Assembly (NCBI GenBank): GCA_964016885.1
Contig: OZ024761.1
Span: 23,870,001-23,934,000 of the forward strand
DNA length: 64,000 nucleotides
From: Eledone cirrhosa
Lineage: Eukaryota
Direction: 5' to 3'
In this document: piece after piece, positions 34,099-34,510 of the stretch
Layout: every line of letters begins with the position of its first letter
How positions within the stretch are numbered: position 1 is the first letter of the stretch
Program-made: the position numbers and the translations under genes
Notes under the pieces: generated by a model
The model's input: the letters and a program-made list of their open reading frames with translations, nothing else
The model's database searches: none
Told to the model about the DNA's origin: nothing

Positions 34099-34303
34099 AA
34101 CGAAGGAAATGTGGTAAGGAACCAGATGGATCATAAAGCACCAAAGTACTCAATACTTAGGGTAGTAGAGTGGGTAATAGGAACGAGTAGGACCCCGACG
34201 GCTGAGCTCAAGCCGTTTCGACGGCTAATTCTGGACTAAATAGATTTAGTCCGGAATTAGCCGTCGAAACGGCTTGAGCTCAGCCGTCGAGGTTCTACTC
34301 GTT

Positions 34304-34307
<4 letters not shown>
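34099..34307 (-). mobile_element. Family A copy 8 (long hairpin)
   Basis: Tail plus taggaacgagtaggacccc...ggactaaa taga tttagtcc...ctactcgttccta. Confidence 0.92.
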
Positions 34308-34361
<54 letters not shown>

Positions 34362-34365
<4 letters not shown>

Positions 34366-34510
34366 AAAATGTTTAACCCCGACTGCAGAGCTCAAGCCGT
34401 TTCGACAGCTATTTGTGGATGTCCAGAAATATTACCCACTCTACTACCATAAGTATTGAGTACTCTGGTGCGTCATGGTCCATCTGGTTCCTTACCACAC
34501 CTCCTTCGTT
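34362..34510 (+). mobile_element. Family A copy 9 (inversion without duplication)
   Basis: Only the inverted arm taggaaaatgtttaacccc... is present, joined to the tail. Confidence 0.85.

What the first reader, a model, noticed from the sequence alone, without database searches (positions are those of the whole stretch)
34099..34510. Twin-priming signature: inverted arms end at an internal TA-like site
Seen: every inverted family A copy starts at the same base (TAGG.., the complement of ccTAtt), whether the product is an inverted duplication (copies 1-4, 6-8, 12) or a pure inversion (copies 9-11). In other families the duplicated segment also stops at an internal TA run: gtttacgaATATATA (4650), aatatcgTATAT (39773), ttccaATATATA (50040), ttattaATATA (61630). 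Known: L1 twin priming gives 5' inversions when the second target strand primes internally on the RNA. Inference: the self-complementary (TA)n target primes both at the 3' end and at an internal UA-rich site, and the two cDNAs join at hairpin microhomology. One mechanism would then explain the inverted repeats of all these families.
Basis: inference. Interest (0 to 1): 0.72.

Follow-up and report, generated by a model that had tools for sequence, protein, structure and literature searches.

The report
Penelope element copied from both ends
These mirror-image inserts in TA repeats are the end pieces of a Penelope-type jumping gene, and their two outer ends start at two fixed points 80 bases apart, which likely means both cut DNA strands prime copying at sites chosen by the element's own machinery rather than by matching TA runs.

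Summary
Family A is the 3' end (pseudo-LTR plus an 80-nt tail) of a 3.55-kb, 723-aa Penelope-like element with Hydra-clade motifs. Arms start at two fixed bases, u1 and u81 (22,102 and 16,238 exact junctions genome-wide). A site-2 arm had a tail-bearing partner in 87 of 93 cases and a site-2 partner in none. Either arm can be the longer, which excludes simple fold-back. So two-strand priming is well supported. TA pairing does not choose the site: both sites match the primer by only 3 nt, while an equal site (27 hits) and a perfect ATATAT (5 hits, 3,936 arms pass it) are almost unused. Short copies stop at two further fixed points: u121-143, at an initiator-like motif (76 of 93 arms), and exactly at the predicted hammerhead cut (74 loci; controls 0 and 0). 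Both look like run-off at RNA 5' ends. The inverted layout with a one-sided tail and two internal start sites are published. This scan already reached the twin-priming reading on other DNA of this genome.

The parts
34074..34099 (.). (TA)n target, site-1 side of copy 8
34100..34179 (-). 80-nt tail (u1-u80) between the two start sites; RNA sense is the minus strand; first copied base of start site 1 at 34100
34177..34180 (-). start site 2 in read-through form: 3-nt primer match at 34177-34179, first unambiguous copied base u81 at 34180
34180..34241 (-). site-1 arm continuing through the pseudo-LTR to u142; holds the 3' half of the hammerhead (stem III, predicted cut between 34197 and 34196) and the initiator-like motif whose A lies at 34237
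34242..34243 (.). inner joint of copy 8, two letters not matching either arm
34244..34305 (+). inverted site-2 arm (u142 to u81), ends in (TA)n
34306..34363 (.). (TA)29 shared by copies 8 and 9
34364..34509 (.). copy 9, pure inversion: site-2 arm from 34364 to about 34429 (to about u137) and site-1 arm 34430-34509 (u80 to u1) that stops at site 2
3845..3995 (.). family A copy 1, inverted duplication
6437..6621 (.). family A copy 2, inverted duplication
10542..10678 (.). family A copy 3; the site-2 arm ends at the predicted hammerhead cut
12040..12252 (.). family A copy 4, inverted duplication with inserted letters at the joint
12784..12922 (.). family A copy 5, single arm ending at u138 and joined to (TA)n
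23980..24183 (.). family A copy 6, inverted duplication
28866..28972 (.). family A copy 7, inverted, deletion in the tail
40436..40555 (.). family A copy 10, inversion with small deletion (arms u1-72 and u81-127)
55437..55591 (.). family A copy 11, inversion with a 27-nt local duplication at the joint
60958..61142 (.). family A copy 12, inverted
4403..4688 (.). family B: same two-arm layout, tail about 40 nt, 7-nt TA match at site 2; no hammerhead identified within the stretch examined
39392..39860 (.). family C: two arms, hammerhead-type core in each, tail about 90 nt (end approximate), 5-nt TA match at site 2
49228..49640 (.). family C variant; here the last base of the natural site does not match the TA flank, yet the start is in register (end approximate)
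49929..50038 (.). family E palindrome; one arm continues past a TA run (only copy seen)
61144..61675 (.). family D: two arms, minimal hammerhead-type motif, tail about 45 nt (end approximate), 5-nt TA match at site 2

Best explanation
These are insertions of a Hydra-type Penelope-like retroelement in which both nicked strands of a (TA)n tract likely prime a cDNA, one at each of two fixed RNA sites 80 nt apart, after which the two cDNAs would be joined head to head. Shown by sequence: the two fixed starts, their near-obligate 1-with-2 pairing, either arm being the longer, and two fixed stop points in short copies. Inferred: the element's GIY-YIG nuclease nicks both strands; the protein-RNA complex (probably a dimer on one RNA) positions the two starts, with a 3-8 nt UA match only helping the primer engage; the site-1 enzyme either stalls at site 2 (pure inversion) or displaces the other cDNA (inverted duplication). 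Most events would start near the 5' end of the transcript, so both cDNAs run off at a transcription start near u138-142, or in a small share at the hammerhead-cut end u97, gain untemplated letters and are joined by end joining. Long and tandem copies would come from multimeric or circular RNA.
For: Autonomous element: 3,549-nt unit, 723-aa ORF with RT motif YRDD and C-terminal GIY-YIG-like domain, at least 150 matches at 96-99% to its RT segment; look-alike clusters carry GIY-YIG and RVT_1 on a minority to most of their members. Fixed starts. Pairing: 87 of 93 site-2 arms have a tail-bearing partner (78 by script, 9 by eye), 0 a site-2 partner, 4 join other DNA, 2 unresolved; 26 of 27 long inverted copies with both ends seen are 1/2 (one begins at u10), 1 is 2/2; 14 of the 41 long loci were not inverted or not resolvable. 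Site-2 arm longer in 8 of 26 long and 28 of 71 short copies; mirror-image joints occur in both orientations. Site-1 arm ends at or before u80 in 7 of 71. Arms are closer to each other than to the best of 40 other loci in 14 of 16 (2 by a thin margin). Stops: 76 of 93 site-2 arms end in u121-143, while 0 of 19 long arms that reach u121 on a second lap stop there. Both arms ending at the predicted cut with 2-7 letters between: 74 loci; the same design at u100 and u94: 0 and 0; the region folds as a type I hammerhead with a U3-A8 core in 95 of 105 matches. Published biochemistry on another PLE: both strands cut and extended, two internal starts that bound the tail, predicted dimer (PMC11167929).
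Against: No RNA data, so the start site and in vivo cleavage are untested. No cap-derived G was shown (3,045 G versus 2,927 C before the motif; the C count is mixed with shared joint bases and perhaps a subfamily). One RNA is not proven: L090 joins a family A arm to a family C arm, 4 of 93 arms join other DNA, and 1/1 copies exist (L006, L162, one with inverted flanks at C22:23,982,527). Arm similarity could come from later gene conversion. Rfam gave no hammerhead hit; Pfam and PDB gave no hit for the ORF. In the published system the start was not homologous to the target and cut RNA was not detected, whereas here a 3-nt match is present at both sites. Target-site duplications cannot be read inside (TA)n. 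Arm ends come from automated extension and can be off by a few bases at palindromic joints.
Confidence: 0.75

Rival explanations
1. L1-type twin priming: the second (TA)n end anneals wherever the RNA is UA-rich, and that choice sets the inversion point.
For: A TA match of 3-8 nt lies at site 2 in all five families examined. Rare true starts at other UA sites exist: 3 of the 5 hits at the ATATAT of u193-199 and some of the 27 at u57.
Against: 16,238 starts at a 3-nt match against 27 at an equal match 24 nt away and 5 at a 6-nt match crossed by 3,936 arms. 124 positions of the unit match as well or better. Site 1 is internal too. L1 twin priming gives internal deletions (PMC2837659, passages); here overlap of up to 2.8 kb is the rule.
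Confidence: 0.07
2. Self-priming or fold-back: one cDNA (or an antisense template, as proposed in PMC3846280) folds on itself at a hairpin, is copied back and jumps to the other TA end.
For: Palindromic joints and microhomology; near identity of arms; a few 1/1 and 2/2 copies, one with inverted host flanks, fit it.
Against: Cannot give a 1/2 insert whose site-2 arm is longer (8 of 26 long, 28 of 71 short) or pure inversions, and gives no reason to stop at u81.
Confidence: 0.05
3. Dual priming: two separate protein-RNA complexes, each with its own RNA, work on the two ends, with some asymmetry forcing one to use site 1 and the other site 2.
For: Hybrid A/C insertion L090 and other arms joined to foreign DNA; kilobase overlaps need no displacement in this model; PMC2837659 notes that twin and dual priming are hard to tell apart.
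Against: Independent choice predicts many 2/2 pairs; 0 were seen among 93 site-2 arms. Both arms of one insert share subfamily letters and share their stop class (both at u97 in 74 loci), as expected from one molecule.
Confidence: 0.13
4. The stop at u121-143 is a structural or protein block in hammerhead stem II and loop II, not an RNA 5' end; the u97 class arises by later trimming of palindrome tips.
For: The interval lies in stem II and its loop; ends are spread over about 20 nt; no cap signal was shown.
Against: 0 of 19 second-lap passages stop there; sharp upper limit with untemplated A/T-rich letters; symmetric ends 3 nt either side of u97 are absent.
Confidence: 0.3
5. Assembly or chimeric-read artefact.
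For: Palindromes and (TA)n are known trouble spots; no read spanning copy 8 was shown.
Against: Fixed junctions in raw short reads of other individuals; arms differ in sequence and length; a short-read contig holds both arms (X4 record 13).
Confidence: 0.01

Closest known systems
Hydra clade of Penelope-like elements (Craig et al. 2021, PMC8557442; abstract, passages, section 11, supplement sheets S1-Hydra and S2 read)
   Same: C-terminal GIY-YIG, DKT, CxCx5C linker, CxxC and CxH around E and N, no CCHH, type I hammerhead, (TA)n target; a cephalopod member is listed there, and one Repbase member has a 5'-truncated inverted copy.
   Different: Unit 3.55 kb (theirs generally under 3 kb); RWR in place of RWK; hammerhead core with U3-A8 and a long stem III; tail 80 nt rather than 30-40. 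No tree was built.
Poseidon element PAc in vitro (Frangieh et al. 2024, PMC11167929; parts 1-2 of 4 read, the main text)
   Same: Both strands cut and extended; two internal starts that bound the tail; AT-rich target; predicted dimer.
   Different: The text read does not pair one start with each strand or explain inverted copies by it; it reports no primer homology and no reads ending at the hammerhead cut, while here 3 nt match and 74 loci end at the predicted cut.
L1 twin priming and dual priming (Meyer et al. 2010, PMC2837659; passages read; the original 2001 model is recalled only)
   Same: Second target strand primes internally; head-to-head product; microhomology at the joint.
   Different: In L1 one primer sits on the poly(A) end, the inner site is set by annealing and products usually have an internal deletion. 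Here both sites are internal and fixed, inversion is the majority outcome, and arms usually overlap.
Inverted pLTR with optional tail in Penelope elements (Arkhipova et al. 2013, PMC3846280; Schostak et al. 2008, PMC2377424; passages read)
   Same: Same architecture, palindromic joints, initiator-like promoter motif inside the pLTR.
   Different: PMC3846280 explains the palindromes by self-priming on an antisense template; the arm-length and start-pair counts here do not fit that as the general route.
Non-LTR retrozymes and the circular-template idea (PMC7229834 and PMC4209133, passages; 10.64898/2026.07.22.740005, part 1 of 5)
   Same: Type I hammerhead in PLE-derived repeats; tandem inserts possibly from cut and circularised RNA.
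   Different: Family A short copies are truncated products of a coding element, not tandem non-coding monomers; most lack the 5' half of the ribozyme.

Membership tests
Penelope-like element, endonuclease-bearing | single ORF with RT and GIY-YIG endonuclease | tested here: met
   723-aa ORF with YRDD and VIY...YIG motifs; look-alike clusters with GIY-YIG and RVT_1; no Pfam or PDB hit
Penelope-like element, endonuclease-bearing | partial tandems forming pseudo-LTRs, inverted 5'-truncated copy, one-sided tail | tested here: met
   24 arms wrap into a second unit; 27 inverted copies with both ends seen
Penelope-like element, endonuclease-bearing | type I hammerhead in the pLTR | tested here: met
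   fold and core motif; no Rfam hit; activity untested
Hydra clade | DKT motif, CxCx5C linker, CxxC and CxH around E and N, no CCHH | tested here: met
   read from the ORF against section 11 of PMC8557442
Hydra clade | RWK motif near the N terminus | tested here: inconclusive
   RWR at the matching place
Hydra clade | (TA)n insertion preference | tested here: met
Hydra clade | RT phylogeny groups with Hydra references | not tested
   no reference proteins were fetched
Neptune clade | CCHH motif with two cysteines between GIY and YIG | tested here: not met
   one cysteine only; definition
L1-type twin priming | second target strand primes a second cDNA | tested here: met
   inferred from site-2 arm longer in 8 of 26 and 28 of 71
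L1-type twin priming | inner site chosen by annealing to the target overhang | tested here: not met
L1-type twin priming | first primer on the RNA's 3' poly(A) end; internal deletion between arms | tested here: not met
   site 1 is followed by ORF leader; overlap in most copies, deletion or exact fit in 7 of 71
L1-type twin priming | one RNA molecule serves both primers | tested here: inconclusive
   for; against: hybrid L090
L1-type twin priming | target-site duplication around the whole insert | not testable with these tools
   flanks are (TA)n; no second haplotype held; one paralogous empty site only

The most novel reading that the evidence does not exclude
For this Penelope-like clade, two-strand priming is the normal insertion route, not an accident: one protein dimer holds one RNA at two programmed internal sites and starts a cDNA from each target strand. 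The tens of thousands of short palindromes are a fossil 5'-end map of the template RNA, marking its transcription start (u138-142) and, in 74 or more loci, the hammerhead cut, which would be genomic evidence that self-cleaved PLE RNA is reverse transcribed in vivo.
Probability: 0.5. Interest if true: 0.75.

Novelty: new variant of a known kind. Interest (0 to 1): 0.55.

Why it matters
How Penelope-like elements make their inverted and tandem inserts, and what their hammerhead does in vivo, are called open in the papers read (PMC8557442, PMC11167929, PMC4209133). A young, intact, high-copy element with exact start and stop coordinates makes both questions directly testable: one RNA, two start sites, two predicted 5' ends. 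It also replaces a published self-priming reading for most copies of this family. The layout itself is known, and the twin-priming reading is not new to this scan.

Tried and rejected
The generic repeat finder was swamped by microsatellites. Rfam found no hammerhead in the window or the pLTR; its top hits other than 5S rRNA were microRNA models below threshold. Pfam and PDB gave nothing for the ORF. I first filed the element as Neptune from recalled motifs; rejected after reading the definitions. Cap-G test: inconclusive (local counts C 20, G 20, T 7, A 94). First exact microhomology count failed on register errors and was redone. Empty-site search among 119 inserts gave one usable paralogous case. 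No RNA holder listed, so expression and 5' ends were not tested. A circular template for long copies is not shown: in L079 the short arm differs from the two laps of the long arm by 1 of 1,170 and 9 of 1,211 letters, which fits a multimer of unlike units better. No earlier scan note matched this family by sequence. Literature searches listed no paper whose title or abstract start proposes twin priming for PLE inversions; the two papers holding 'Penelope', 'twin priming' and 'inverted' were seen as listings only, and the library lacks most subscription papers, including the 2005-2006 PLE reviews. Supplements of PMC11167929 (figures S1, S2) were not read and may bear on strand-by-start pairing.

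Full report
Setting. The window is G000:C22:23,870,001-23,934,000 of a 3.0-Gb animal assembly. Positions u1, u81 and so on count along one natural full-length unit (L074) in the direction of cDNA synthesis, u1 being the first base after the (TA)n at the tail end.

Observation. Twelve family A copies lie in the window; eleven are inverted and all start the second arm at the same base. The interval given holds copy 8 (inverted duplication, 34100-34305) and copy 9 (pure inversion, 34364-34509), sharing a (TA)29. The four sites quoted for other families are there. Raw reads of three other runs leave the element at u78 into (TA)n in 2,771-3,176 reads each and show strand-change joints, so this is not an assembly artefact.

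What family A is. Longer copies extend through a 1.3-kb 3' region into an ORF. A search with its RT segment returned 150 scored matches at 96-99% identity, many in frames of 770-795 codons. Forty such loci plus L051 define a 3,549-nt unit with a 723-aa ORF. The ORF has DKT, YRDD, a CxCx5C linker, VIY...YIG with a single cysteine, CxxC and CxH, which match the Hydra clade as defined in PMC8557442 section 11; RWK reads RWR. Pfam and PDB gave no hit; a language-model search gave clusters carrying GIY-YIG and RVT_1. I had read it as Neptune until an earlier scan note named Hydra and I checked the definition. The region before the tail folds as a type I hammerhead (z-score 0.78, no Rfam hit) with a U3-A8 version of the C3-G8 core pair in 95 of 105 matches. 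Families C, D, F and G also carry hammerhead-type cores by eye. The inverted copy and one-sided tail are the published PLE layout (PMC8557442, PMC3846280).

Two primers. Exact junction counts are 22,102 at site 1 and 16,238 at site 2. Of 41 long loci, 27 were inverted with both ends visible: 26 were 1/2 and one 2/2. The site-2 arm is the longer one in 8 of those 26 and in 28 of 71 short copies; the site-1 arm stops at or before site 2 in 7 of 71. One cDNA folding back cannot make these, so the self-priming reading of PMC3846280 does not fit most copies; a few 1/1 and 2/2 copies may be fold-backs. Arms of one insert are closer to each other than to the best other locus in 14 of 16, which fits one template but also later conversion. 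Against one RNA: L090 joins a full family A lap to a family C arm.

What picks the site. After u1 the unit continues into the ORF leader, so both sites are internal. Both match a (TA)n primer by 3 nt; 124 of 3,549 positions match as well or better and 8 by 5 nt or more. The equal match at u57 gave 27 junctions. The 6-nt match at u193-199 gave 5, of which 3 are true starts, though 3,936 arms cross it. In families B, C and D the match is 5-7 nt, less in some C variants. So a short UA match is conserved and probably helps the primer, but the place is fixed by something else. PMC11167929 showed for another PLE that both strands are cut and extended from two internal starts that bound the tail, with a predicted dimer; that supplies the likely machinery.

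The inner joint. In long copies 14 of 19 clean joints share 2 nt or more (null 18%) and 5 share 4 or more (null 2%); 12 of 31 had inserted letters or were unresolved. In short copies 76 of 93 site-2 arms end in u121-143, and site-1 arms show the same ceiling, often with untemplated A/T-rich letters. None of 19 long arms that reach u121 on a second lap stops there, so a block acting on every pass is unlikely. u138 is the A of a motif fitting the initiator consensus YYANWYY (consensus recalled); PLE promoters with an initiator lie in the pLTR (PMC2377424, PMC3846280, passages). I infer run-off at the transcript's 5' end; a cap signal was not shown and no RNA run was listed. A second class ends on both arms exactly at the predicted hammerhead cut, u97: 74 loci with 2-7 letters between, against 0 at u100 and 0 at u94 (the control patterns differ in degeneracy and the u100 one adds a CpG-linked stretch). 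This is the best hint here that cut RNA is copied in vivo, which PMC11167929 could not detect in its species.

Verdict. The element is a new member of a known clade and the layout is published; the fixed, paired, overlapping form of twin priming is a variant I did not find stated in the eight searches named under Tried and rejected. This scan has reached the twin-priming reading several times on other repeats of this genome; those notes are not independent evidence. What this follow-up adds is the coding parent, genome-wide controls on TA matching, and the two run-off points. Confidence by step: two-strand priming at fixed sites about 0.85, one RNA about 0.65, run-off at a transcription start about 0.6, use of hammerhead-cut RNA about 0.7. 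Interest 0.55.

Noticed in passing
window 31618-31736 (minus): Full-length 5S rRNA match (108.7 bits) directly abutting a copy of the window's common short interspersed repeat; gene, pseudogene or chimera not determined.
   Followed up: no
L090 4690-5000 (G000:C14 near 14,847,200): Hybrid head-to-head insert: one full family A lap joined through a hairpin to a family C arm that ends at its own tail and (TA)n; suggests two different RNAs, or a deletion between neighbours.
   Followed up: partly
L083 7270-10000 (G000:C1 near 91,489,200): An array of at least four tandem family A units ends in about 50 or more tandem copies of a 55-nt piece of the unit (u1876-1933): a minisatellite born at the end of a cDNA arm, perhaps by repeated template realignment.
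   Followed up: no
G000:C22:23,982,527 (in L035): Both arms start at site 1 and the host flanks are inverted copies of each other: a true fold-back or larger palindrome.
   Followed up: partly
G000:C22:24,055,022-24,055,293: A site-2 arm and a site-1 arm facing each other with about 170 nt of mostly (TA)n between them instead of a direct joint.
   Followed up: no
L119: An insert in a tandem repeat whose empty units hold 35-43 nt of TA has 72 and 105 nt of TA on its two sides: the target pre-exists and the run is longer after insertion; one case only.
   Followed up: partly
window 38465-38863, 11059-11177, 54626-54716: Further hammerhead-type palindromes (families F and G); in several copies the arms stop a few bases beyond the ribozyme core, at initiator-like letters by eye.
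   Followed up: partly
window 19198-21561, 25585-26030, 16434-17690: Satellites of 19 bp (125 copies), 41 bp (11 copies) and a 28/90/152-bp purine-rich array.
   Followed up: no
window 27663-27862: 200-N assembly gap.
   Followed up: no
L051 982-4200: Broken LINE-like element (endonuclease and RT frames) next to the 4.3-kb family A palindrome.
   Followed up: no
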